A DNA stretch of 64,000 nucleotides. Source: Escherichia phage EC106. This document shows, in pieces, positions 8,125 to 47,460 of this stretch (position 1 is its first letter; every line of letters begins with the position of its first letter). Under the pieces are notes generated by a model. It saw only the letters and a list, made by a program, of their open reading frames with translations. It ran no database searches and was not told the DNA's origin. The stretch is from the sequence record ON210138.1; one strand, written 5' to 3'. The translations under genes and the position numbers were made by a program.

Positions 8125-8925
8125 TTAGTGCAGTTGGTCAGCATACTCTTTTTCAGCCATAGCTGAGATTTGCTTCACAAAATCATCACCGAAGTTAATG
8201 CGTAGTTTCTCTTCAATGATTGAAGCACCAATGTTCACCAAAACATCATTGATTGCTTGCATACTGACGCCACCAGTCATCTCTTCAATGAACTCAATAC
8301 TCACACCCATCATCTGTGAAAGTTGGATTAGTGCAACAATATTCATCATCGTAGAGATAGCTGGAATCATCAGTGCAACTTTCACCTGAAGAGGTTCTAT
8401 ATCAGCTACAGAGTCATTTTCAACAGCTTCTTCCAAAGACTCTTTAGTTTGCTGGATAATCTCCTTGATTCGTGGGTTTAGTTCTTCTACGCCCCAATCA
8501 AGTTTTTCATATCGTGAAAGTTTCTCTTCCATACGCTTCTCAAGAGCAGCCATAACAGCACTTGTTGATGAGATAAGCGTATCAATAATGAAATCAGTGT
8601 CCTTAGTCAGCAACAGTTCCTTATCTTCATCTGACATTCTGATATAGTCATTCTTTTGCATTTCATAAAAAATGAACTCAGCAAGTGCATCAACACCAAC
8701 CGCAATAGATGCCAGAGCAAGTGTTTTGTCGCAAAGCATCATGTTGACCTGTTCTGCAAAAGCACCGTTATCAGACTTGTCTTCAGGCAAGTTATAGCTT
8801 GCAGGCATAAACTGTTCTGTGTAGTTATTACCACGAAGAATCATAGCCATGCTTTCTACGGCATTGATTAAAAATGCTTCGTCAACACCTTTCTCTTCAA
8901 GCATCTTTTCTACATCGTTATTCAT
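8125..8925 (-). CDS. hypothetical protein
   Basis: 266 aa ORF; no motif recognised. Confidence 0.5.
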   Translation of the reverse strand: MNNDVEKMLEEKGVDEAFLINAVESMAMILRGNNYTEQFMPASYNLPEDKSDNGAFAEQVNMMLCDKTLALASIAVGVDALAEFIFYEMQKNDYIRMSDEDKELLLTKDTDFIIDTLISSTSAVMAALEKRMEEKLSRYEKLDWGVEELNPRIKEIIQQTKESLEEAVENDSVADIEPLQVKVALMIPAISTMMNIVALIQLSQMMGVSIEFIEEMTGGVSMQAINDVLVNIGASIIEEKLRINFGDDFVKQISAMAEKEYADQLH

Positions 8926-18379: not shown

Positions 18380-19279
18380 ATGTCACAAGCAGATACAAGT
18401 TACAAAAATATCCTGAACCATGTTTTATCCGTTGGTGAACTGCGTACTACACGAACTGGAGATGTTATCTCTGCATTTGCTCCACCACAGTTTCGTTTTG
18501 ATATGAGAACTGGTTTCCCACTCTTAACATCTAAACAGGTGTTTACACGGCAAGTTATTGGGGAAGCTCTATGGTTCCTGAATGGTGAGAATAAACTTGG
18601 CGAACTCCGTTACCGTACTTGGGGTGAAAATGATGGGGAACGCTGGACTATCTGGTCAGATGATTTTAAACGCTGGTTAAGCTCTAACTATTCTTCTGAA
18701 CAAGACTGGTTAGAAGATGCAGGTGGGAGAATCTACGGAGTTCAGTGGAGAAACTTTGAAGGTCATAATGGTTGTGTTGTAGACCAGTTAGAGGCCTTAG
18801 TAACGAAGATGAAGGGTGATATTACAGACCGCTACATGCTTGTTAATGCTTGGAATGCAGCAGATATTGCAGCTAACTCGATGGCTTTAGCACCTTGCCA
18901 TGTACTGTTTCAGATTTATATCACTAATGAGGGTGAAGTTGACTTGCAATGGTATCAGCGTTCTGTAGACACCTTTTTAGGACTTCCATTTAACATTGCG
19001 TCTTACGGCTTCATCTTAGAAGTTCTTTGTAAGATGACTGGATACACTCCACGGTACTTGATAGGTGTCTTTGGAGATACTCAGATTTATCAGAACCATA
19101 TGAAACAGGTTTATGAACTGATGAACAATGAAGAGTTCCATGCACCTACTTTTGAGATTGGTGTGCAGCTTAACACTCTAAGTGACCTTAAACATCTTAC
19201 TGCAAGTGATTTTATTGGTGGCATTAACAACTACCAACATGCAGGGAAGATTGAAGCACCTTTATCAGTAGGCAAGTAA
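18380..19279 (+). CDS. thyA: thymidylate synthase
   Basis: 299 aa; catalytic-cysteine region LAPCHVLFQIY and typical TS length. Confidence 0.8.
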   Translation: MSQADTSYKNILNHVLSVGELRTTRTGDVISAFAPPQFRFDMRTGFPLLTSKQVFTRQVIGEALWFLNGENKLGELRYRTWGENDGERWTIWSDDFKRWLSSNYSSEQDWLEDAGGRIYGVQWRNFEGHNGCVVDQLEALVTKMKGDITDRYMLVNAWNAADIAANSMALAPCHVLFQIYITNEGEVDLQWYQRSVDTFLGLPFNIASYGFILEVLCKMTGYTPRYLIGVFGDTQIYQNHMKQVYELMNNEEFHAPTFEIGVQLNTLSDLKHLTASDFIGGINNYQHAGKIEAPLSVGK

Positions 19280-19282
19280 AAC

Positions 19283-19322
19283 AAAAAAAAAAAAAGGCTC
19301 CCGTAAAAAGGAGCCTTAAACT
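19283..19322. terminator. bidirectional rho-independent terminator between convergent genes
   Basis: A13 run, then hairpin GGCTCCCGTAAAAAGGAGCC, then T-rich tract; lies between the thymidylate synthase stop and the stop of the minus-strand gene at 19323. Confidence 0.6.
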
Positions 19323-19694
19323 TTATTTTTCAGTATTCTTTGTGTTCTTTTCAGTAATAGCTTGGAGGGCTGATACTGATTGAGCCAGATTGTTCACACT
19401 GTCAGAGAATTTATCAAGAGTTTTGGTAAGTTTTGCATTCTCACCCTTAACATTCTCTAACTGGACTTTCTGGTTCTCCATCCCTAACTGAAGCATTCTC
19501 ATGTCAGACTGTAAGTCACGAATAGCTGAATAGTTACTTTTGGAATAATTATCTAGCTGCTGTAACTTTGTTGTGACAGACACTTCTTGCTTACCACTTG
19601 AAACTTGTATCGTGGTATACATCCCAATAACACTAAAAATACCAACAACAATTGCACCAATATTGTTTTTAAAAGCTTCCTCTAGCCACTTCAT
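19323..19694 (-). CDS. putative i-spanin (Rz-like): N-terminal TM segment plus coiled-coil
   Basis: 123 aa; hydrophobic IGAIVVGIFSVIGMYTTI followed by long heptad-like charged region. Confidence 0.4.
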   Translation of the reverse strand: MKWLEEAFKNNIGAIVVGIFSVIGMYTTIQVSSGKQEVSVTTKLQQLDNYSKSNYSAIRDLQSDMRMLQLGMENQKVQLENVKGENAKLTKTLDKFSDSVNNLAQSVSALQAITEKNTKNTEK

Positions 19695-19888
19695 TTATTC
19701 TCCCCCTTAAAAGCTTTTTCTAAGTTATCTACGAACTCATCATCAATAGGTGTGTCTGTCTTACCCGCAAGGTATCTTGCAAGCTTAAAGAACACTTTCT
19801 CAATCATGTATTCACTTAGAAGGGATAAAATGAGTTTCCAGAAGAAGCTACCTAGATTTTTTAGAAGAATTGCTAGGATTGTAGGCAT
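19691..19888 (-). CDS. small membrane-associated protein (possible lysis-related)
   Basis: 65 aa with hydrophobic N-terminus, adjacent to the spanin-like gene. Confidence 0.35.
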   Translation of the reverse strand: MPTILAILLKNLGSFFWKLILSLLSEYMIEKVFFKLARYLAGKTDTPIDDEFVDNLEKAFKGENK

Positions 19889-19967
19889 TTAATCACCTCA
19901 TCAGCCAAGATGGTGAGAATACCCATAAATAATATTAACACCATCTTAACAATCAGTCAATAAGGGA

Positions 19968-22325
19968 TTAAGCAGTTCTTACCCAAGCCATTAACTTGTA
20001 GAACTGGTTAGTAACACTAAATGCTGAACCAGAACCTGTACCACCAGTGTCACCACTAACCGTATGACTGTGAGCACCAATACCTACAGAGTGGGAATGG
20101 TCGCCAGCACCGCTAGTCCAAAAAGAGAAAGAATGACTGTGGTTCCCTGACGCATAAGTTTCATGACCACCAGACCTATATGCTACTGCATATGATGATG
20201 TTCTATTACCACCTACACCAGTACCGTTCCACGCCTCAATGTAGTGGGTGTGCTCACCATTTGTGCTAGTAGAACCACTACCATAGTGAGAATGACCACC
20301 AGTACTGTTAGTTCCCTTCGTACCATAATCAAAAGATGAAGTGGTAGCAGAGAAACTATGAGTGTGTGAAGGTAAATTACCAACAGCTAACGCCACAGAA
20401 TCTGAACCACCAGTTGTAGCAACATCTGAACCATTTGCTGCTGCAATTCTAATAGTTCTGCCAACACCATTGTTCAGGTACGTCCAAGTTAGACCAGGAA
20501 GTGCTGTATTAGGGTCAACATTACTGTTAAACCACGTTACAATACCTACTGGATAGATTTTGTTAAGGTCTGTAGAGTCACTAATTGCCTGTGCAATCTT
20601 CTGGTCAGTTTCAGCTTTAGTATATGCGCCGATATCTGAAGGGGTTGGTTTAAAATCAGTTGTATAAAACTGTGCTTCTCCAGCGTATTCACCCTTGTCA
20701 TCATAGGCATAGGTGAATGCTGCTAAGCCCAATGAGCCGTACAAAAAAGAGATGCCCCTTGAATGTGCAGCAGTCTTACTAGAGTGCGCAACATGAATTG
20801 CTAAATCTCTTAAGCCGTCAGTAACACCATTATTTCTGACAAAACCTGAGTACCCAATATTAAATGCTGAATGGTCTTCAAGGTTATTTACAGTTACAGT
20901 CATTAAGGATTGGTCTAATAGCTTAGTCTTAACAAAATATCTATTATCTAAGTTAGCCCAATCTTGTGGTTGAACCTGCCCATTAATATACAGGTTCTTA
21001 TTCATACTAACCAATGTTGGCTCTAGGGAAATTTGAGTGCCTGAAAAGCTGTTGCTCAAGGTTACCACGTTAGAATTAGCAGTTCCTACGCCCAGCCACC
21101 ACCTAGATACATTCGCAGTATCAACACCACGGATATATTGTGGCTGTCCCTGTGTTAAGCTCCTTAATACCAAACCCTCGTTGTCAGACACAATAGTTTG
21201 CACATTTGTGAAAGTATTAGATACATTAAGTTTAGCAAGATTACTCAAAGTAGCTGCCGGAATGTATCTAGAGTCAATGTTAGTCCAATCAGAAGGTTGA
21301 ACTTGACCAGTGATTCTTACATTCTTATTAAATGCTACGCCAGACGAGTTTAAGATAATAGAGGTATTGCCCTTGTAATCGTAAAATGTGATATCAGAGC
21401 TTGTATCACCTTTACCAATAAACCATAAATTATTGTACTCGCTATCTTTTGCTAGGATGAATAACTCCTCACCTACATCTTTATTCTGTAACATGATAGC
21501 AGCTTTATTAACTTTTACGGAAATAGGTTTACCGAATGTATTTTCACCGCTAAAAGCATTATTAGCAGCTAACTGTGCAAATCTCTGATTAGCTGCTGTC
21601 TGAGTAAAATATCTAGCATCTAAGTTAGAGAAGTCAGACGGCTGAACTTGACCAGTGATTGATAAAGACCTATTAAAAGAAGCAACCGTGCCTAGAGTGA
21701 GGATGGAACCTTGTTTACTCTCGATTTGAACATCAAGATTACCCCTAATCAGGTTCCCAATAGCCCAAGTTTTTTCATTACTTGCGTCCCTACCTACAAT
21801 AGCAGAGTATGCGCTATCCCCACTCACAGGAGATTTTAATGTTAACTGTTCCCCATTTGCGATGATAGTCTGTTTAGAATTGAATGAGTTTGTAACAGCA
21901 AGCCTTGCATACCTTGCATCATTCTCTTCATTAGCTCTCATCCCAAGTTCATTAGGGCTTGGTTTATTCAGAGTATGATAAACAGTTGCCGACCTTGAAG
22001 CATCTGCAATAGTTAGTTTAAGGCCATTTGCGTTGATTTTAAAAGTCTTTAAAACATCCCCAATAGTAATCTCAGAAGAGCCTGTTGGGTCAAAGACTGC
22101 CTTACCACCATAAAGTAACTTAACAATTCCTAAGTCACCCGTCATAGTGCTGCCAGCAATCTGAACAAATCTTTCTAGTTTAAAAGATGCTAAGAAGTCT
22201 TGATAGGTCATTCGACGGTCTTCATCACCCAGCATTTCAGGTCTCTTTTTAACTCTGACATGAAGAAGGTCATCTGAACGGATTGTATCGATTGAGTTTA
22301 ATTCACTCAACTTGTAATCTGCCAT
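19968..22325 (-). CDS. tail fibre protein with His-rich C-terminal tip
   Basis: 785 aa; three repeats of ITGQVQPSD(F/W)(S/T)N(L/I)D(A/S)RYF, C-terminal HSHS/HTHY-rich region shared with the neighbouring fibre gene. Confidence 0.7.
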
Positions 22326-22371
22326 TATAAATTTTCCTCTAAAAAGGGGCTATAAAGCCCCTGTAAAGAAA

Positions 22372-23544
22372 TTAAGCTGTTCTCTGCCATACATACAGTA
22401 CGAAGGATGGCTGCTCAATATTAACCGCCTGACCTCCACCAACACTATTCGTATTGCCACTATGTGTATGCTCAGAAGAAGAAATTGCCACAGTTCCACT
22501 ATGTGTATGTGAACCAATACCAACTGTGTGGATGTGAGCACCAATACCAACTACGTGGCTGTGGTTACCAGATGCACCAGATGTAACGCTAAAACTGTGT
22601 GAGTGTGCACCATCACTAGATGTCCTTGATGTTCTCCATGCACCACCACCATCAGAGTCAGCTACAGCATTACCAGTACCATCATTTTCTCTAGGGTACA
22701 CATCATGGTTGTGAGTGCCATCTGTACTTGTGTTACCTGATACGTTGTGTGTATGGTTACCAGTTGTATTAGTCTCTTTTGTTCCATAGTCGAAAGAGTT
22801 GGTAGCCTTAGTTCCATAGTCAAAAGCTGAAATTGACACAGTTGCATTATGAGTGTGACCACCACCACTAAGAGACACAGAGTGAGAGTGTTGAGGCATG
22901 TTATTAACTGACAAAGTGACAGTTGAAGAACCAAATACAGAACCTGCTGGTCTTGTGTCAGAGTCATAACCAACCAATGCTCTACCTTTTGAAACTAACT
23001 CCCAAGTACCTCCACAAATTAAATATGTAGAAGGGTTTGCAGAGTTCATGGAAAGATGGATAGTACCTACTGGATAGGAAGCCTGAACAGCCTTGTACAA
23101 GTTATTTACTGCTCTTGCTGTAGCGTACTTATCTGCATCTTCGTTATAAAGGTTAGATGCTGTCCAGTTCTGAACATTACTCAACCCTACCTGTGCCTTA
23201 GTTGTATTGTGTGGGTTACTCTTGTCTTTGATATGTTGTTGGACAAGATTATTAACCTCTTCTGAAGACATAATCTGTAGATTTGCTCTTGCCTCAGCTA
23301 CATTGACAATATCTGATAAGTTATTTGCAGCGACTAACTGAAGAGCGTTAATAACATTATCTAAACCAATTTGTGTTTTAGTAACACCATGAGGGTTATT
23401 TCTTAGGCTTGAGTGTGGAGCAAGTAATTGCTCAAGAGTACATCTCTTATCTTCAATACCCTGCTTAAGATGGAAGATATCACTAAGGTCAATTGGTAAG
23501 GCTGCTTGAGGCAAGGCACTAATTTGAATTTCACCTACTGCCAT
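22372..23544 (-). CDS. tail fibre protein (second), His-rich tip
   Basis: 390 aa; C-terminus HSHSVSLSGGGHTHNAT...AHSHSFSVTSGASGNHSHVVGIGAHIHTVGIGSHTHSG resembles metal-binding HxH tips of T4 gp37-like fibres. Confidence 0.7.
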   Translation of the reverse strand: MAVGEIQISALPQAALPIDLSDIFHLKQGIEDKRCTLEQLLAPHSSLRNNPHGVTKTQIGLDNVINALQLVAANNLSDIVNVAEARANLQIMSSEEVNNLVQQHIKDKSNPHNTTKAQVGLSNVQNWTASNLYNEDADKYATARAVNNLYKAVQASYPVGTIHLSMNSANPSTYLICGGTWELVSKGRALVGYDSDTRPAGSVFGSSTVTLSVNNMPQHSHSVSLSGGGHTHNATVSISAFDYGTKATNSFDYGTKETNTTGNHTHNVSGNTSTDGTHNHDVYPRENDGTGNAVADSDGGGAWRTSRTSSDGAHSHSFSVTSGASGNHSHVVGIGAHIHTVGIGSHTHSGTVAISSSEHTHSGNTNSVGGGQAVNIEQPSFVLYVWQRTA

Positions 23545-23546
23545 TA

Positions 23547-31580
<8,034 letters not shown>

Positions 31581-43279: not shown

Positions 43280-43355
43280 TGGAGAATCCGAAGGGACTCG
43301 AACCCTTATAAACCTGTTTTGCAGACAGGCACATATCCATTTCTGTCACGGATTC
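43280..43355 (-). tRNA. tRNA-Cys (GCA)
   Basis: 7 bp acceptor gaatccg/cggattc, T-loop GGTTCGAGTCC, loop CTGCAAA, encoded CCA. Confidence 0.75.
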
Positions 43356-43359
43356 AAAT

Positions 43360-43452
43360 TGGAGGAAGATACCAGACTTGAACTGGTACACCGATTTCTC
43401 AGCTACTGGCAGTTTAGCAAACTGCTCCCTTACCTTTTAGGGTTAATCTTCC
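43360..43452 (-). tRNA. tRNA-Ser (GCU), long variable arm
   Basis: Acceptor ggaagat/atcttcc, T-loop GTTCAAGTC, loop TTGCTAA, 93 nt. Confidence 0.7.
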
Positions 43453-43453
43453 A

Positions 43454-44188
43454 TTATTTCTGTAATGCGCTCTTCATTTCTGGTGTTGCAATAGTGTCAA
43501 TTACACCAGTTTTACAGGCATCATCAAACCAGTCTGGTAAGATACCTGCTAAGAACCCATTGATATTCGTTTTAAGGTACTCTGCAATAAGGGCAGCTTC
43601 TTCTTCAATCATCTGCACAACTTCATCTGCATAAGCTGTAATCTTTGAAATACCTTCATTAATTTTACTGACAGCTTGGTTAGCTAAATCAGAAACAGTA
43701 TCAAGACCCTTATCAATAGCGTCTTGTAAGTCACTTAACACACCATTAACACTATCTAGTGTACTGTTAATCGTGTCAATAGCTTTTTGACCATACTCTG
43801 TAGCAACACCCATAATGCCACTGAATGGTGTACAACCAACTTGTTCTCCTGCTGCACCCATAACATTGGAGTATCCCTTTGCTACCTGCATACGTGATGA
43901 AAACTCATCAATAGACTTTTGACCGTAGTCTGTTAGGGTCTTAGTAGTTGCTGTAGTGTTTGTAAGGCTTGTTGTAAAGCTGTTTAGAAGGACTGTTGTA
44001 AGTCCAGCAGCAACAAGCTTCTCCTTCATTGTAGGGTCTGTTACAGAACTAATAGAGCTTACAAGTGATGTAGAGGCAGCTACGGTTCCACCGAGAACTG
44101 CTGCACCAGTAATAAGTGGGTTAGAAAACCCTTTACCGGTTTTTAAGAGATTAAAAATCTCCTTACCTTGTTCTGTCATCTCTTTCAT
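43454..44188 (-). CDS. hypothetical protein embedded in tRNA array (Thr/Ser/Ala-rich)
   Basis: Track ORF 43454-44251 overlaps tRNA-Phe; trimmed to ATG at 44188. Confidence 0.5.
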   Translation of the reverse strand: MKEMTEQGKEIFNLLKTGKGFSNPLITGAAVLGGTVAASTSLVSSISSVTDPTMKEKLVAAGLTTVLLNSFTTSLTNTTATTKTLTDYGQKSIDEFSSRMQVAKGYSNVMGAAGEQVGCTPFSGIMGVATEYGQKAIDTINSTLDSVNGVLSDLQDAIDKGLDTVSDLANQAVSKINEGISKITAYADEVVQMIEEEAALIAEYLKTNINGFLAGILPDWFDDACKTGVIDTIATPEMKSALQK

Positions 44189-44204
44189 TAAGCACCTTTG
44201 AAAT

Positions 44205-44281
44205 TGGTAGTCCAGTGGGATTTGAACCCTCTTCTCATGTTTTTCAGACACGCGCTTTAACCATATAAGCTACTTGGACTA
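44205..44281 (-). tRNA. tRNA-Phe (GAA)
   Basis: T-loop GGGTTCAAATCCC, loop CTGAAAA. Confidence 0.65.
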
Positions 44282-44286
44282 TAAAT

Positions 44287-44362
44287 TGGGGTGACCTACG
44301 GGATTTGAACCCGTATAGACCATGTTCACAGCATGGGTCATTACCTTTTATGATAAGGCCAC
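44287..44362 (-). tRNA. tRNA-His (GUG)
   Basis: T arm acggg-TTCAAAT-cccgt, loop CTGTGAA, extra 5' G. Confidence 0.7.
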
Positions 44363-44393
44363 ATTTAAGGACTCTCGTAAGAACCCTTAGAAG

Positions 44394-44469
44394 TGGCAGC
44401 GGCATAAGGATTTGAACCTTAATAGGACAGCTTCAGAGACTGTTGCATTGCCAGTTATGCTATACCGCT
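44394..44469 (-). tRNA. tRNA-Gln (CUG)
   Basis: D stem gcat/atgc, stem acagt/gctgt, loop CTCTGAA. Confidence 0.6.
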
Positions 44470-44474
44470 AAATT

Positions 44475-44554
44475 TGGTACTCCATATCGGATTCGAACCG
44501 ATACATAACACAGATTTTAAGTCTGGCCTCTCTGCCAATTGGAGTAATGGAGCA
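44475..44554 (-). tRNA. tRNA, anticodon probably UAA (Leu-type) but short variable arm; isotype uncertain
   Basis: Acceptor gctccat/atggagt, T arm atcgg-TTCGAAT-ccgat; anticodon stem imperfect; loop CTTAAAA. Confidence 0.4.
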
Positions 44555-44555
44555 T

Positions 44556-44631
44556 TGGCGGGGGATGTTGGAATTGAACCAACTTCTTCGATTTCAAAGA
44601 CCGAGGTTTTAACCTTGTAAACTAATCCCCT
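44556..44631 (-). tRNA. tRNA-Gln (UUG)
   Basis: Stem tcggt/atcga, loop CTTTGAA, T arm gttgg-TTCAATT-ccaac. Confidence 0.6.
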
Positions 44632-44639
44632 TTAAATCT

Positions 44640-45197
44640 TTACTTTCTCAGTGGATGAATAAAGAATGCCAACATAACTCTTTCCCTTGAGAATGCTCTT
44701 TCTTCTGGGACAACACTTTTTAGTTTCCATCCAACATAAATTCTCCAGTAAAACTGTTTACCAAAGACTTTAATTGATGGGATAAAAGCGAATAACCCCC
44801 AAGCATTACTGTTCCACATTAGGAGATAACCAGTCTGATTATCTTCAGGGTTAGAACTTACGTTGATATTACCTTTCCACTTAGTAACATCTTTTACATC
44901 TCTTCCTAATACATGGTAAGAGAAGTTATAAGCTTTGTTTCTCCAGAGCCATCCAACTCTCTGCATGTAGACACCAAGCTTACCAATCTTTCTAATCTTA
45001 GCCCATCTTTTAACGTGGCCTTCATCACCATCAATCGGGTTGTCATAGGTCTCCATCCATCTGAATCCAAAAGGTAGATGCCCTTTCTTCTCACTGTAGA
45101 ATGGAACTACGAAAGGTGCTAAGATGACTGCTAGGGTTGCTGCAAATGGTTCTAGTAAAGCTAAGAAAATCCATGAAGCATACTTCAAATATCTCAT
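44640..45197 (-). CDS. membrane protein embedded in tRNA array
   Basis: 185 aa; N-terminal hydrophobic segments, Trp-rich. Confidence 0.55.
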   Translation of the reverse strand: MRYLKYASWIFLALLEPFAATLAVILAPFVVPFYSEKKGHLPFGFRWMETYDNPIDGDEGHVKRWAKIRKIGKLGVYMQRVGWLWRNKAYNFSYHVLGRDVKDVTKWKGNINVSSNPEDNQTGYLLMWNSNAWGLFAFIPSIKVFGKQFYWRIYVGWKLKSVVPEERAFSRERVMLAFFIHPLRK

Positions 45198-45216
45198 CTA
45201 AATAGCCTCTTAAAAT

Positions 45217-45294
45217 TGGTGTTCCAAGACGGATTCGAACCGTCACTAATACAAGGTTTGAGCTTGCATCCTCTGCCAATTGGGATACTGGAAC
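45217..45294 (-). tRNA. tRNA with CAA anticodon (Leu-type), short variable arm; isotype uncertain
   Basis: Acceptor gttccag/ttggaac, T arm gacgg-TTCGAAT-ccgtc, loop CTCAAAC. Confidence 0.45.
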
Positions 45295-45295
45295 A

Positions 45296-45370
45296 TGGTA
45301 CTCACTAAAGGACTTGAACCTTTTTCTTCATCTTGTAAGGGTGATGTTTTACCATATAAACTAAGCGAGT
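45296..45370 (-). tRNA. tRNA-Val (UAC)
   Basis: D stem gttt/aaac, loop CTTACAA, T arm aaagg-TTCAAGT-ccttt. Confidence 0.6.
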
Positions 45371-45460
45371 GTGAAAGAGGTCTGAAGTTGTGCCGCTAAC
45401 TCAACTCCGTGGAATTTGTTACGGTCTTCAGTTGACACCAGCGGTCTTTCACTTGACCTC
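45371..45460. ncRNA. tRNA-sized structured element without canonical T-loop (possible degenerate tRNA or small RNA)
   Basis: Closed by perfect 7 bp terminal stem agaggtc/gacctct with internal ctgaag/cttcag helix; fills exactly one tRNA-sized slot. Confidence 0.3.
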
Positions 45461-45465
45461 TGAAT

Positions 45466-45542
45466 TGGTGCTGCTCACAGGACTCGAACCTGCATTTCCA
45501 TCCTTACAAGGGATGTGTAATAGCCAATTATACGAAAGCAGC
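45466..45542 (-). tRNA. tRNA-Thr (UGU)
   Basis: Stem catcc/ggatg, loop CTTGTAA, T arm gcagg-TTCGAGT-cctgt. Confidence 0.7.
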
Positions 45543-45548
45543 ATTATT

Positions 45549-45623
45549 TGGAGCATCCAGAGGGAATCGAACCCTCAACCTCAGTTTGGAAGACTGTAAT
45601 TTTCCCGTTTAAACTATGGATGC
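45549..45623 (-). tRNA. tRNA-Gly (UCC), alternative register would give CCA
   Basis: Perfect acceptor gcatcca/tggatgc, T arm gaggg-TTCGATT-ccctc, loop CTTCCAA. Confidence 0.5.
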
Positions 45624-45629
45624 ACTAAT

Positions 45630-45705
45630 TGGTGGAGTCACTGAGAATTGAACTCAGTTCCCGAGTTTGCAAAACTCGAATTTTAACCATATAAACTATG
45701 ACCCC
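45630..45705 (-). tRNA. tRNA-Ala (UGC)
   Basis: Perfect stem cgagt/actcg, loop TTTGCAA, T arm ctgag-TTCAATT-ctcag. Confidence 0.7.
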
Positions 45706-45710
45706 ATTTT

Positions 45711-45786
45711 TGGTACAGGTGGAGGGAATTGAACCCATCGTCTTACTGATTAAGAGTCAGCCGCATAACCATTTTGCTACACCTGC
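45711..45786 (-). tRNA. tRNA-Lys (CUU)
   Basis: Stem gctga/tcagt, loop CTCTTAA; T arm shared with the UUU Lys copy. Confidence 0.55.
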
Positions 45787-45793
45787 ATTAATT

Positions 45794-45871
45794 TGGTAGG
45801 AGACAAGGGATTCGAACCCTCAAACATCTCGTTCTAAGCGAGATAGGTTTACCAATTACCGTCAATCTCCC
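45794..45871 (-). tRNA. tRNA with UAG anticodon (Leu-type), short variable arm; isotype uncertain
   Basis: Perfect stem tctcg/cgaga, loop CTTAGAA, T-loop GGTTCGAATCC, 5 nt variable loop. Confidence 0.5.
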
Positions 45872-46116
45872 ATTAAATCTTTTTAGAGAACTTCTAAGAA
45901 CCTAAGCAACAAGGTTCCACAACAAGCTGTAATAACCTTAGAAGCCCTCTAAAAAGACCTAAAAAGGTCTTTGCATAGTCTTGTTTAATCCGGTGACTAG
46001 AACCTTTGGAGAGCTTGATATTATCTCTTCTCCGTGACACCTACTAGGTGTTTTATCAGTGTGTACGACAATACACGAGGGATAAACCGAAAATGCGAGC
46101 AAGCATGGACGGTGTA

Positions 46117-46458
46117 TTAAATCTTTAAGCTAAGTTCAGTCTTAGACTTGATATCTTTAGCTTTGTAGATGATGACTTTATCAAGTGGTTCAATGTAAAC
46201 AGCTAAGTAATCAACCTGAGAGTTATCAAAATTCATTATTCTATTTTCATTCTTGTTAGAACGAACTCTTTTCAGTTGCACTCTCCAAAGTTCACCTCTT
46301 TTGACTGATGTTGATTTTACCTCAACAGTCTCAATCAAACCATCTTTGTGAACTAGAAAGTCATACTTTGCATTATCTGTAGCTGGTGAATACACTTCAT
46401 AACCTCTTTTGAGGAAAGCTAATTGTGTAGCAATTTCACCTACTGAACCTTTCTTCAT
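46117..46458 (-). CDS. PD-(D/E)XK-type nuclease-like protein embedded in tRNA array
   Basis: Track ORF overlaps tRNA-Ser; trimmed to ATG at 46458. Motif YDFLVHKDG...ETVEVKS fits the D...(D/E)xK nuclease pattern. Confidence 0.5.
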   Translation of the reverse strand: MKKGSVGEIATQLAFLKRGYEVYSPATDNAKYDFLVHKDGLIETVEVKSTSVKRGELWRVQLKRVRSNKNENRIMNFDNSQVDYLAVYIEPLDKVIIYKAKDIKSKTELSLKI

Positions 46459-46481
46459 AATCACCACCTTAAAAATCATTT

Positions 46482-46568
46482 TGGCAGAGAGTGCAGGAGT
46501 CGAACCCGTACCGTTTCCAGCAGCACCAGTTTTCAAGGCTGGTTGGTCTCCGTTGACCGCCACTCTCT
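46482..46568 (-). tRNA. tRNA-Ser (UGA), long variable arm
   Basis: Perfect acceptor agagagt/actctct, loop CTTGAAA, 87 nt. Confidence 0.65.
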
Positions 46569-46581
46569 CCGAAACAATCTT

Positions 46582-46664
46582 TGGCATGGGACGGAGGAGT
46601 TGAACCCCTTTGAAACGGTTTTGGAGGCCGTTGCTCATGCCTTAGAGTCTTAACATCGTCCCAC
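46582..46664 (-). tRNA. tRNA-Trp (CCA), enlarged D region
   Basis: Acceptor gtgggac/gtcccat, T arm agggg-TTCAACT-cctcc, loop CTCCAAA; 83 nt. Confidence 0.5.
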
Positions 46665-46806
46665 ACTACAATTCGAAGCTTACCGTATTATCTCAACACT
46701 GTAAAGCCCCTTCTCAGATTATTTACATGTTCTGGAAAACATGAGATACAGACCACCTCCTTACACGGAGACCCGATAAGGTCGTCTAAGCAATCTGCTA
46801 ACTATT

Positions 46807-46883
46807 TGGCACACCCTACAGGATTCGAACCTGTAACTAACGATTTAGAAGACCGTTGCTCTATCCAATTGAACTAAGGGTGC
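46807..46883 (-). tRNA. tRNA-Arg (UCU)
   Basis: Stem acggt/atcgt, loop CTTCTAA, T arm tacagg-TTCGAAT-cctgta. Confidence 0.7.
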
Positions 46884-47220
46884 ATTAATCTTTAAAGACT
46901 CTCTTAGAAAGCCCTTAAAGATGCCCACCTTATTAATCATACCGTGGGCTAGTACGCCAAATTCTTTGATGAGGGATTGGAAGACCTCACTGGTGTTTAG
47001 CCTATCAAGCTACTGCCAGAAAAACATTGTCGTTTGCATTTATTTTAAATTTGCAAAATAGACGCTACGCAACGAAAACTATTCAGAATATGTACAACAA
47101 ATTTCCCCACATTGTGTTACGTCTAACGCTCATGTATTGGTGTTTGAATTATACATATGCTGAATCATTTTCAGTTACTATAAAGCGGTCGCATCTCAAT
47201 GTCAACAACTTTATTGAAAT

Positions 47221-47295
47221 TGGTTGTAGGTGAGGGTATCGAACCCTCTTCTAACGGTTATCAGCCGTTTGCATTACCATTTATGCTAACCCACA
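47221..47295 (-). tRNA. tRNA-Ile (GAU)
   Basis: Perfect stem aacgg/ccgtt, loop CTGATAA, T arm gaggg-TTCGATA-ccctc. Confidence 0.75.
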
Positions 47296-47297
47296 AT

Positions 47298-47374
47298 TGG
47301 AGGTTCAGATGGGAATCGAACCCACATTCATAGGGCTTATGAAACCCCTGCATTACCTTATCTGCGACTGAACC
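47298..47374 (-). tRNA. tRNA-Met (CAU)
   Basis: Perfect acceptor ggttcag/ctgaacc, loop TTCATAA, T-loop GGTTCGATTCC. Confidence 0.65.
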
Positions 47375-47378
47375 ATAT

Positions 47379-47454
47379 TGGTAGAAGTGGAGGGATTCGA
47401 ACCCATCGCCTGTCAGATTAAAAGTCTGCCGCATCACCATTCTGCTACACTTCC
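47379..47454 (-). tRNA. tRNA-Lys (UUU)
   Basis: Acceptor ggaagtg/cacttct, loop CTTTTAA, T-loop GGTTCGAATCC. Confidence 0.65.
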
Positions 47455-47460
47455 ATTAAA

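What the first reader, a model, noticed from the sequence alone, without database searches (positions are those of the whole stretch)
19968..23544. Two tail fibre genes share histidine-rich HxH repeat tips
Both fibres end in long runs of HSHS / HTHN / HxH triplets interspersed with Gly/Ser/Thr. T4 gp37-type fibre tips use HxH motifs to coordinate metal ions in a needle domain. The shared tip on two fibres of different length suggests module exchange between them.
Basis: partly seen in the sequence, partly recalled or inferred. Interest (0 to 1): 0.45.

Follow-up and report, generated by a model that had tools for sequence, protein, structure and literature searches.

The report
Felix O1-type phage fibres with T4-like tips
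These are the short and long tail fibre genes of a Felix O1-like E. coli phage, and both end in the metal-binding, histidine-studded "needle" tip first solved for phage T4, which is already described for this phage group and so is ordinary.

Summary
Two adjacent minus-strand genes, 22372-23544 (390 aa, short fibre, STF) and 19968-22325 (785 aa, long fibre, LTF), end in Gly/Ser/Thr-rich tips with 9 and 6 HxH motifs; shuffles give 0.4-1.5.

The metal-needle reading is supported. Both tips match the T4 gp37 tip crystal structure 2XGF (E 4e-46 and 8e-26), with the HxH motifs in register with T4's iron sites. The histidines are conserved in relatives.

This is already published. The window is a Felixounavirus close to VpaE1. 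The gp37 homology was reported in 2010 and 2015, and the two-fibre HxH tip architecture by cryo-EM of Bas63 in 2025.

"Module exchange between them" fails for this genome. The tips are 36% identical in protein, share only 33-60 bp DNA scraps, and their receptor-binding heads are unrelated.

Two things go beyond the finding:
- The LTF carries a 287-bp block 86% identical to T4 gene 37, keeping all 11 T4 residues reported as critical.
- This roughly 280-bp cassette is swapped among relatives. In Felix O1 and most Salmonella relatives one cassette type matches at two places per genome; in the three genomes aligned these were the STF and LTF. So exchange between the fibres occurs in the genus, not here.

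Interest is low.

The parts
22372..23544 (-). Short tail fibre (STF) gene, 390 aa. It corresponds to VpaE1 gp74, Felix O1 gp76 and Bas63 gp26.
   Evidence: ORF. phrog_2097 'tail fiber protein' E = 2.4e-136. Pfam Gp10_C 63.5 bits against a cut-off of 27. 95.8% nt identity to VpaE1 gene 74.
23092..23544 (-). STF N-terminal part (aa 1-151). By analogy with Bas63 it contains the baseplate-binding region and helical 'NPHxxTKxQ[IV]GLxNV' repeats at aa 50 and 110.
   Evidence: Motifs. H44, H52, H104 and H112 are 99-100% conserved. Domain role inferred from PMC12609058.
22912..23091 (-). STF collar domain (aa 152-211), of the gp10/gp11/gp12/gp37 collar type.
   Evidence: Pfam PF21939 covers aa 154-265. 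PDB 2FKK and 5HX2 (T4 gp10) match at E about 4e-5.
22453..22911 (-). STF needle and head (aa 212-364). The up-strand has 4 HxH, the variable head is aa 281-313 (window 22606-22704), and the down-strand has 5 HxH. This predicts 9 metal sites.
   Evidence: 2XGF alignment covers aa 146-360.
22516..22797 (-). STF stretch equivalent to the exchangeable cassette (aa 250-343, from the second SFDYGTK to VGIGAHxHTV).
   Evidence: The boundary at STF nt 748 recurs in every STF-LTF exchange seen in relatives. Coordinates.
22326..22371 (-). 46-nt spacer between the STF and LTF genes. It holds a stable hairpin (GGGGCU-UUAU-AGCCCC, window 22346-22361) followed by U5, then a GAGG ribosome-binding site.
   Evidence: Sequence. 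Fold energy -18.4 kcal/mol, z = -3.85, 0 of 200 shuffles fold as well. Function not tested.
19968..22325 (-). Long tail fibre (LTF) gene, 785 aa. It corresponds to VpaE1 gp75, Felix O1 gp77 and Bas63 gp27.
   Evidence: ORF. phrog_4277 'tail fiber protein' 1226 bits, full length. Pfam gp37_trimer E = 3.4e-53 and Phage_fiber 38.3 bits against a cut-off of 20. 85% nt identity to VpaE1 gene 75.
20571..22025 (-). LTF shaft (aa about 100-585). It has three repeats marked by GQVQPxDxxNxDxRY at aa 225, 340 and 449, which match the beta-helix repeat domains described for Bas63.
   Evidence: for the motifs. Pfam PF20744 matches in 3 stretches. PMC12609058.
20388..20570 (-). LTF collar domain (aa 586-646), Felix O1-lineage type.
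   Evidence: Conserved across Ounavirinae LTFs. Only 28% identical to the T4 collar. Pfam Gp10_C scores 22.7 bits, below its cut-off of 27. tblastn of T4 gp37 aa 807-993 matches at 51.5%, E = 1e-45.
20055..20387 (-). LTF needle and head (aa 647-757). The up-strand has 3 HxH, the T4-type head is aa 695-728 (window 20142-20243), and the down-strand has 3 HxH. This predicts 6 metal sites.
20059..20345 (-). Mosaic DNA block 86.1% identical to T4 gene 37 nt 2692-2978. It encodes the distal needle and the receptor-binding head.
   Evidence: In an ungapped extension, identity falls to 27-40% in the 30-90 nt outside the block. VpaE1 has the same block, with the same boundaries, at 93% identity to T4.
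19971..20054 (-). LTF C-terminal return segment (aa 758-785, ...[29 protein letters not shown]), Felix O1-lineage type.
   Evidence: Almost invariant across Ounavirinae LTFs. 17% identical to T4.
23547..23849 (-). 100-aa gene directly upstream of the STF. It is probably the LTF-platform protein (Bas63 gp25, described as a T4 gp9 analogue).
   Evidence: Assignment rests on gene order and size: the 489-aa, 285-aa and 100-aa ORFs, then STF and LTF, match the Bas63 description. phrog_4141, unknown function. No direct sequence comparison with Bas63 was made.

Best explanation
The window comes from a Felix O1-like myovirus (genus Felixounavirus) of E. coli. The two genes encode its short and long tail fibres.

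How the tips are built:
- Each fibre is a homotrimer whose C-terminus forms a T4 gp37-type receptor-binding tip.
- A collar domain comes first. The chain then runs out along a thin intertwined beta 'needle', forms a small head at the far end, and runs back to the collar.
- Each HxH motif, taken from all three chains, supplies six histidines that hold one metal ion (Fe2+ in T4) on the fibre axis.
- This predicts 6 ions in the LTF and 9 in the longer STF needle. The ions rivet the needle together.
- The head, not the histidines, contacts the receptor.

How the two tips relate:
- The collar, the proximal needle and the C-terminus are lineage-specific scaffolds, different for STF and LTF.
- The roughly 280-bp stretch between the conserved SFDYGTK and VGIGAHxHTV motifs (distal needle plus head) is an exchangeable specificity cassette.
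- In this phage the LTF carries the T4-type cassette. It probably recognises a T4-like receptor: truncated LPS core of E. coli B type, possibly also OmpC.
- The STF carries an unrelated head, so the phage probably reads two different surface structures.
- The cassettes are most likely swapped by homologous recombination at the conserved motif DNA.

What is shown and what is inferred:
- Shown here: the homology, the motif register, the His conservation, the mosaic DNA block and the cassette pattern in relatives.
- Inferred: metal binding, trimer topology, receptor identity and the recombination mechanism.
For: Identity of the phage and genes:
- 90-94% nt identity to NBEco005, VpaE1, AYO145A and related records, where both genes are annotated as tail fibre proteins.
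- The flanking genes are the baseplate wedge genes, DHFR and thymidylate synthase, as in VpaE1.

Tip fold:
- 2XGF matches at E = 3.9e-46 (LTF) and 8.3e-26 (STF), with supporting Pfam and PHROG hits.
- T4's seven HxH motifs map onto HxH in the STF 7 of 7 times and in the LTF 6 of 7 times.
- Seven axial irons bound by these histidines, and loss of function on H929A or H931A, are reported in PMC6957217.
- Cryo-EM of Bas63 shows collar, needle and head tips with 7 (STF) and 6 (LTF) di-His motifs (PMC12609058).
- His is conserved in relatives.

Cassette:
- The LTF block at window 20059-20345 is 86% identical to T4 gene 37. Identity falls to background directly outside the block.
- LTF-T4 protein identity is 75-83% in the needle and 74% in the head, against 28% in the collar and 17% in the C-terminus.
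- Aligning 7 Ounavirinae LTF tips shows a conserved collar and C-terminus around a hypervariable centre.
- The T4-type cassette occurs in only 42 phage records: T4 and close kin, plus about 19 E. coli felixounaviruses. The hosts listed include E. coli B and BL21.

Receptor:
- All 11 T4 tip residues reported as critical are identical in the LTF. These are H929, H931, I933, W936, N937, G938, G940, G942, G943, S947 and Y949.
- The OmpC patch K945/I951/Y953 reads R/V/Y.
- VpaE1, which has the same cassette type, infects only E. coli B-type strains with truncated LPS (PMC4690856).
Against: - No direct evidence here for metal binding, trimerisation or receptor identity.
- The AlphaFold2 monomer model of the STF was poor (pLDDT 61, pTM 0.26). 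Its Foldseek search found nothing significant, so topology rests on sequence homology and on published structures of relatives.
- T4 gp37 needs the chaperones gp38 and gp57A. No gp38 homologue is detectable in the window. None of the listed rows in a phage-wide tblastn is a Felix O1-sized genome, and 'Felixounavirus' is absent from the organism names shown. How a T4-type tip folds here is therefore unexplained.
- The OmpC-patch changes (K945R, I951V) and the changes at S958H, N959E and N961Y leave the receptor prediction uncertain.
- Within the block VpaE1 is closer to T4 (93%) than to this window (87.5%), although the flanks are 93-96% identical between the two phages. The history therefore involves more than one event, or fast divergence of the cassette.
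Confidence: 0.9

Rival explanations
1. One reading: the two tips are alike because a tip module was recently exchanged, by gene conversion, between the two fibre genes of this genome.
For: - The tips are homologous at E = 7e-29.
- Such exchange does occur in relatives. UAB_Phi87 STF and LTF share 200 bp at 91%.
- Felix O1 and most Salmonella relatives hold one cassette type at two places per genome.
- The metagenomic contigs L008 and L009 have 100% identical cassettes of 278-282 bp in both fibres.
Against: - In this window the two genes share only 33 bp at 82% and 60 bp at 72%.
- The heads are 32% identical, and the STF keeps almost none of the critical T4-type head residues.
- The LTF cassette's nearest DNA relatives are other felixounavirus LTFs and T4 gene 37, not the neighbouring STF.
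Confidence: 0.04
2. The HxH runs are a compositional or low-complexity feature, or a generic metal-binding or His-rich tail, unrelated to the gp37 needle.
For: The region is Gly/Ser/Thr/His-rich. BLAST applied composition-based adjustment.
Against: - Strong position-specific matches to 2XGF that include non-His residues such as FDYGTK, STNGEH and VGIGAH.
- Motif spacing is in register with T4.
- Column-specific His conservation across 70 and 112 sequences.
Confidence: 0.01
3. The 390-aa protein is not a fibre that binds a receptor. It would instead be a gp10-like baseplate pin or structural protein that merely shares the collar domain.
For: - Its only Pfam hit above threshold is Gp10_C.
- Citrobacter phage Moogle annotates its homologue as 'baseplate wedge subunit and tail pin'.
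- The Felix O1 proteome found only 9% peptide coverage for this protein.
Against: - It has a complete needle and head matching 2XGF over aa 146-360.
- Its head region is hypervariable among relatives, as expected for a receptor-binding site (consensus; two-piece matches).
- Bas63 cryo-EM shows the homologue as a 430-Å fibre attached to wedge 2.
- In Salmonella relatives it carries the same head cassette as the LTF.
Confidence: 0.05

Closest known systems
Bas63 (Escherichia phage JohannRWettstein) STF gp26 and LTF gp27: Felixounavirus tail fibres solved by cryo-EM (Sci Adv 2025, PMC12609058)
   Same: Same genus and gene order: wedge 2 (489 aa), wedge 1 (285 aa), LTF platform, STF, LTF. Both fibres end in a T4 gp37-like tip with collar, HxH needle and head. 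The LTF has 6 di-His motifs and beta-helix repeat domains.
   Different: The Bas63 STF is reported with 7 di-His motifs, whereas this one has 9. Nine is also the commonest count in the family, in 50 of 70 sequences. The Bas63 LTF has an HHxH next to the head; here the motif next to the head is a plain HTH, and the head is of the T4 type. No direct sequence alignment with Bas63 was made here.
Escherichia phage vB_EcoM-VpaE1 gp74 and gp75 (Viruses 2015, PMC4690856)
   Same: The STF gene is 95.8% and the LTF gene 85% identical in nucleotides. VpaE1 has the same T4-type block in the LTF, with identical boundaries. That paper already reported homology of both C-termini to T4 gp37.
   Different: Inside the T4-type block the two phages are only 87.5% identical, and VpaE1 is closer to T4 (93%). 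Head residues differ (V941R and N944D in VpaE1; K945R, S958H, N959E and N961Y here), so receptor fine-specificity may differ.
T4 gp37 receptor-binding tip, domains D10-D11 (PDB 2XGF; Bartual et al. 2010; Islam et al. 2019, PMC6957217)
   Same: Collar, needle and head layout. HxH motifs in register. The LTF distal needle and head are 74-83% identical in protein and 86% in DNA. All 11 critical tip residues are conserved.
   Different: - The LTF has 6 rather than 7 HxH; the last one, GSHGH, is missing. The STF has 9.
- Collar and C-terminus are only 17-34% identical.
- The fibre is a single protein attached directly to the baseplate, not a gp34-35-36-37 assembly.
- No gp38 homologue is detectable.
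- The STF head is unrelated to T4's.
Adhesin swapping by recombination at conserved motifs ('His boxes') in T-even gp37/gp38 (Tétart et al., J Mol Biol 1996 and 1998; recalled from memory, not retrievable here)
   Same: A variable specificity segment is flanked by conserved His-containing motifs that coincide with the crossover points.
   Different: Here the exchange crosses virus families (Straboviridae to Ounavirinae). In relatives it also runs between two paralogous fibre genes of one genome. The recombination mechanism was not tested.

Membership tests
T4 gp37-type receptor-binding tip (PDB 2XGF; D10 collar plus D11 needle and head) | Significant sequence homology to the solved tip | tested here: met
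   LTF E = 3.9e-46 over aa 647-763. STF E = 8.3e-26 over aa 146-360. tblastn of T4 gp37 aa 807-993 against the LTF gives 51.5%, E = 1e-45.
T4 gp37-type receptor-binding tip (PDB 2XGF; D10 collar plus D11 needle and head) | HxH motifs in register with the iron-coordinating histidines of T4 (7 sites) | tested here: met
   STF 7 of 7 plus 2 extra. LTF 6 of 7, with the site-998 motif replaced by TGG.
T4 gp37-type receptor-binding tip (PDB 2XGF; D10 collar plus D11 needle and head) | Collar domain of the gp10/gp11/gp12 type (Pfam PF21939) before the needle, with the chain returning to it at the C-terminus | tested here: met
   STF scores 63.5 bits against a cut-off of 27. LTF scores 22.7 bits, below the cut-off, but has a conserved YPVG...W collar that aligns with T4. 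Both proteins end in W(V/Q)RTA, aligning with T4's VRLA. The return topology is inferred, not observed.
T4 gp37-type receptor-binding tip (PDB 2XGF; D10 collar plus D11 needle and head) | Intertwined homotrimer with a six-stranded needle | tested here: inconclusive
   Only a monomer AlphaFold2 model could be made. It was poor (pLDDT 61, pTM 0.26) and gave no significant Foldseek match. Cryo-EM of the related Bas63 shows this fold.
T4 gp37-type receptor-binding tip (PDB 2XGF; D10 collar plus D11 needle and head) | Octahedral Fe2+ bound by six His at each HxH level | not testable with these tools
   Needs metal analysis or a structure of the purified tip.
T4 gp37-type receptor-binding tip (PDB 2XGF; D10 collar plus D11 needle and head) | Folding dependent on the gp38 and gp57A chaperones | tested here: not met
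   No gp38 homologue in the window (best tblastn E = 0.2). In a phage-wide tblastn (348 records), the rows listed are T4-like, P2-like or lambdoid genomes, and 'Felixounavirus' is not among the organism names shown. gp57A was not tested. This is a property of T4 assembly rather than of the fold, so it does not exclude membership of the fold family.
Felixounavirus STF/LTF fibre pair (Bas63 gp26/gp27, Felix O1 gp76/gp77) | Synteny (wedge 2, wedge 1, 100-aa platform, STF, LTF, two small ORFs, convergent td/frd) and high identity to genus members | tested here: met

The most novel reading that the evidence does not exclude
The roughly 280-bp stretch between the invariant SFDYGTK and VGIGAHxHTV motifs may act as a portable receptor-specificity cassette, exchanged by recombination at the motif DNA.
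- It would move between virus families. A T4-type cassette sits in a subset of E. coli felixounaviruses, including this one.
- It would also move between the two paralogous fibre genes of one genome, by gene conversion. The evidence is one cassette type at two places per genome in Felix O1 and most Salmonella relatives, and 100% identical copies in two metagenomic contigs.

On this reading a phage can switch between 'both fibres read one receptor' and, as here, 'each fibre reads a different receptor'. A T4-type tip would also fold without the gp38 chaperone.

The papers searched and read here were not seen to describe either the sharing between the two fibres or the gp38 independence.
Probability: 0.55. 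Interest if true: 0.35.

Novelty: already known. Interest (0 to 1): 0.17.

Why it matters
For the finding as written, very little. Published work already covers gp37-type HxH tips on both Felix O1-type fibres: the Felix O1 genome paper (2010), the VpaE1 paper (2015) and the Bas63 cryo-EM paper (2025).

The practical value is in annotation and host-range prediction:
- The cassette boundaries (window 20055-20336 in the LTF, 22516-22797 in the STF) mark what to swap when re-targeting Felix O1-type phages.
- The T4-type head predicts specificity for truncated LPS core of E. coli B type.

Two side observations could interest phage-fibre specialists, because Felix O1 receptor recognition is described as still elusive (PMC8594841):
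- Salmonella Felix O1-like phages carry one head cassette type at two places per genome, shown to be the STF and LTF in the genomes examined, whereas E. coli ones such as this carry two different heads.
- No gp38-type chaperone is detectable.

Tried and rejected
- AlphaFold2 on the STF, with a 54-sequence alignment. Only a monomer could be predicted, and it was poor (pLDDT 61, pTM 0.26).
- Foldseek of that model against the PDB found nothing at E <= 0.001, only weak gp10 collar hits. This is uninformative, as expected for an obligate intertwined trimer. The second prediction job was not spent on the LTF for the same reason.
- Chaperone search. T4 gp38 and gp36 have no tblastn match in the window. 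The small ORFs flanking the fibres (65, 123 and 100 aa) have only unknown-function PHROGs and no significant Pfam hit.
- gp57A was not tested. It is a short coiled coil, so a negative result would mean little.
- I asked whether the 100% identical cassettes in contigs L008 and L009 are a metagenome assembly artefact. This cannot be excluded for those two contigs. No cultured phage has the T4-type cassette at two places (42 records, 42 places).
- However, older exchanges with the same 5' boundary in cultured isolates (UAB_Phi87 and SP116 aligned directly; two places per genome in Felix O1) show the phenomenon itself is real.
- A literature search for 'His boxes' returned no paper containing that phrase. 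The Bartual 2010 structure paper was not held. Both are cited from memory or through papers that cite them.
- The promoter and terminator scan of 19000-24000 found no more sites than shuffled sequence.
Full report
**What is there**

The coordinates 19968-23544 cover exactly two adjacent minus-strand ORFs: 22372-23544 (390 aa) and 19968-22325 (785 aa). A 46-nt spacer separates them.

Upstream on the same strand lie a 100-aa ORF, a 285-aa ORF and a 489-aa ORF, the last two being baseplate wedge proteins. Downstream lie two small ORFs (65 and 123 aa) and a hairpin terminator. Beyond that are convergent thymidylate synthase and DHFR genes.

The region is 90-94% identical in DNA to Felix O1-like myoviruses of E. 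coli (NBEco005, VpaE1, AYO145A, phiWec172 and others). In those records both genes are annotated as tail fibre proteins. The window is therefore part of a Felixounavirus genome. The genes are its short fibre (STF) and long fibre (LTF), in the nomenclature of the Bas63 cryo-EM paper (PMC12609058).

**Checking the observation**

| | LTF (785 aa) | STF (390 aa) |
|---|---|---|
| HxH motifs | 6 | 9 |
| HxH expected, whole-protein shuffles | 0.43 | 1.41 |
| Shuffles reaching the observed count (of 20,000) | 0 | 0 |
| G+S+T share of the last 150 residues | 0.49 | 0.42 |

All the motifs lie in the C-terminal region.

- The two C-termini are homologous: 36% identity, E = 7e-29.
- Among 70 STF-family sequences most motif histidines are 95-100% conserved. 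Motif number changes only by whole-motif insertions or deletions, giving 6, 7 or 9.
- Among 112 LTF-tip sequences, many from prophages of Erwinia, Providencia and Serratia, four of the six motifs are invariant. Needle histidines are twice as conserved as other needle residues, 0.76 against 0.38.

**What the tips are**

- Both proteins match the crystal structure of the T4 gp37 receptor-binding tip, 2XGF: LTF E = 3.9e-46 and STF E = 8.3e-26.
- T4's seven HxH motifs each coordinate one axial iron through six histidines of the trimer. Mutating H929 or H931 is lethal (PMC6957217).
- These motifs align with HxH in the STF at all seven positions, and the STF has two further motifs. They align in the LTF at six of seven positions.
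- Pfam adds the gp10-type collar (STF 63.5 bits) and, for the LTF, the phage fibre repeat and three gp37_trimer repeats in the shaft.
- Cryo-EM of Bas63 shows collar, needle and head tips with di-His motifs on both fibres of this genus.

The metal-needle interpretation is therefore well supported, by homology rather than by direct evidence. My own monomer AlphaFold2 model was poor and its fold search uninformative. That is expected for an intertwined trimer.

**Was there module exchange between the two genes?**

Not in this genome.

| Tip segment | LTF-STF protein identity | LTF-T4 protein identity |
|---|---|---|
| Collar | 34% | 28% |
| Needle, up-strand | 60% | 75% |
| Head | 32% | 74% |
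| Needle, down-strand | 66% | 83% |
| C-terminus | 35% | 17% |

- The two genes share only 33-bp and 60-bp DNA scraps at conserved motif sites.
- LTF nt 1981-2267 (window 20059-20345) is 86.1% identical to T4 gene 37 nt 2692-2978. In an ungapped extension, identity falls to background directly outside the block.
- VpaE1 has the same block, with the same boundaries, at 93% identity to T4.

The LTF tip is therefore a mosaic: a T4-type distal needle and head grafted into a Felix O1-type collar and C-terminus.

An alignment of seven Ounavirinae LTF tips shows the general rule. The collar and C-terminus are almost invariant. The segment between SFDYGTK and VGIGAHxHTV is hypervariable, with 4-6 HxH.

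The T4-type cassette occurs in only 42 phage records. These are T4 and its closest kin, plus about 19 E. coli felixounaviruses. The hosts listed include E. coli B and BL21.

**Exchange between the fibres does occur in relatives**

- Two STF relatives from metagenomes carry the T4-type cassette. In each contig it is 100% identical, over 282 and 278 bp, to the cassette in the neighbouring LTF. The two contigs differ from each other.
- Taken alone that could be an assembly artefact. Within-genome comparison of 32 IMG/VR Ounavirinae loci, however, found graded cases with the same 5' boundary (STF nt 748): 200 bp at 91% in the cultured Salmonella phage UAB_Phi87, and 195-205 bp at 80-81% in two others.
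- Their STF and LTF head peptides are nearly identical.
- Searching with that cassette gives 135 places in 78 records. Most Salmonella felixounaviruses, including the prototype Felix O1, have it at two places.

This E. coli phage is a case where the two heads differ.

**How it most likely works**

- Both fibres are trimers anchored to the baseplate by their N-termini (inferred from Bas63).
- The HxH-metal ladder stiffens the needles, with 6 and 9 sites predicted.
- The heads bind receptors. The LTF head keeps all 11 T4 residues reported as critical. The OmpC patch K945/I951/Y953 reads R/V/Y.
- VpaE1, with the same cassette type, infects only E. coli B-type strains with truncated LPS core.
- I therefore infer a T4-like LPS-core receptor for the LTF, possibly also OmpC, and a different, unknown receptor for the STF.

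One loose end remains. T4 gp37 requires gp38 and gp57A. No gp38 homologue is detectable in the window. The phage-wide gp38 search lists no Felix O1-sized genome among its rows. The Sf14 paper likewise reports no fibre chaperone homologues in a related Ounavirinae phage.

**Novelty**

- C-terminal gp37 homology of both fibres was reported for Felix O1 in 2010 (PMC3185647) and for VpaE1 in 2015.
- The HxH needle tips on both fibres were shown structurally in 2025.
- The finding as written is therefore already known and ordinary.
- Some details were not seen in the papers read: the sharply bounded T4 DNA block, the fixed cassette boundaries, the sharing between STF and LTF in the Salmonella clade, and the lack of a gp38 homologue. 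They are of modest specialist interest and lie mostly outside this window.

Noticed in passing
L031 (Salmonella phage UAB_Phi87) 4748-4947 versus its LTF; 78 phage records, including Felix O1 NC_005282: In UAB_Phi87 and two related loci (L027, L028) the short and long fibres carry the same head cassette (GG[HR]YGGDSIGGKQRVQ...), with 80-91% nt identity between the two copies. A search with that cassette finds 135 places in 78 records; most Salmonella Felix O1-like genomes, including Felix O1, have two places. The papers read were not seen to describe this.
   Followed up: partly
L008 5748-6029 versus 8386-8667; L009 5748-6025 versus 8386-8663: Two metagenomic felixounavirus contigs have a T4-type cassette that is 100% identical in the STF and LTF of the same contig (282 and 278 bp). 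This is either very recent gene conversion or an assembly artefact. No cultured phage shows the T4-type cassette at two places.
   Followed up: partly
window 22326-22371 (-): The 46-nt spacer between the STF and LTF genes folds into a stable hairpin followed by U5 and then a GAGG ribosome-binding site (-18.4 kcal/mol, z = -3.85). It could be a partial terminator or an RNA-stability element that sets the ratio of the two fibres. The simple terminator scan did not list it.
   Followed up: partly
window 19323-19888 (-) and 19294-19317: Two small ORFs follow the LTF gene. The first (65 aa) has a hydrophobic N-terminus. The second (123 aa) has an N-terminal hydrophobic segment and weak coiled-coil-type Pfam matches, and its homologues are annotated 'holin' in SUSP2 and Sf19. 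The order LTF, small ORF, holin recalls T4's 37-38-t. A GC-rich hairpin with a T10 run ends the operon opposite thymidylate synthase.
   Followed up: partly
window 43280-48572 (-): A cluster of 25 tRNA genes, including tRNA-His(GUG). This fits Felix O1-like phages; Felix O1 has 22.
   Followed up: no
window 20059-20345 versus L002 (VpaE1) and L001 (T4): Inside the T4-type block VpaE1 is closer to T4 (93.0%) than to this window (87.5%), although the flanks of the two felixounaviruses are 93-96% identical. Half of the codon differences are non-synonymous (16 of 32 against T4). This suggests repeated exchange with T4-like phages or diversifying selection on the head.
   Followed up: partly
GU169904.1 (Staphylococcus phage SA1) 83003-86593; also two 'Campylobacter' records: A 147-kb record named as a Staphylococcus phage holds Felix O1-type STF and LTF genes at 88.7% identity to UAB_Phi87. 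Records named Campylobacter also match. These are probably mislabelled or chimeric database records.
   Followed up: no
one search hit list (P0132-P0237): The collar-plus-HxH-needle module is widespread in prophage tail fibre or 'baseplate' proteins of Erwinia, Providencia, Serratia, Morganella, Photorhabdus and others, at 41-54% identity. It is often combined with Pfam PF03406 or PF12571 domains.
   Followed up: no
window 23092-23544 (-), STF aa 44-121: Two copies of an 'NPHxxTKxQ[IV]GLxNV' motif lie in the STF N-terminal half. Their histidines (H52, H112) and H44 and H104 are 99-100% conserved in 70 sequences. These conserved histidines lie outside the needle and their role is unknown.
   Followed up: no
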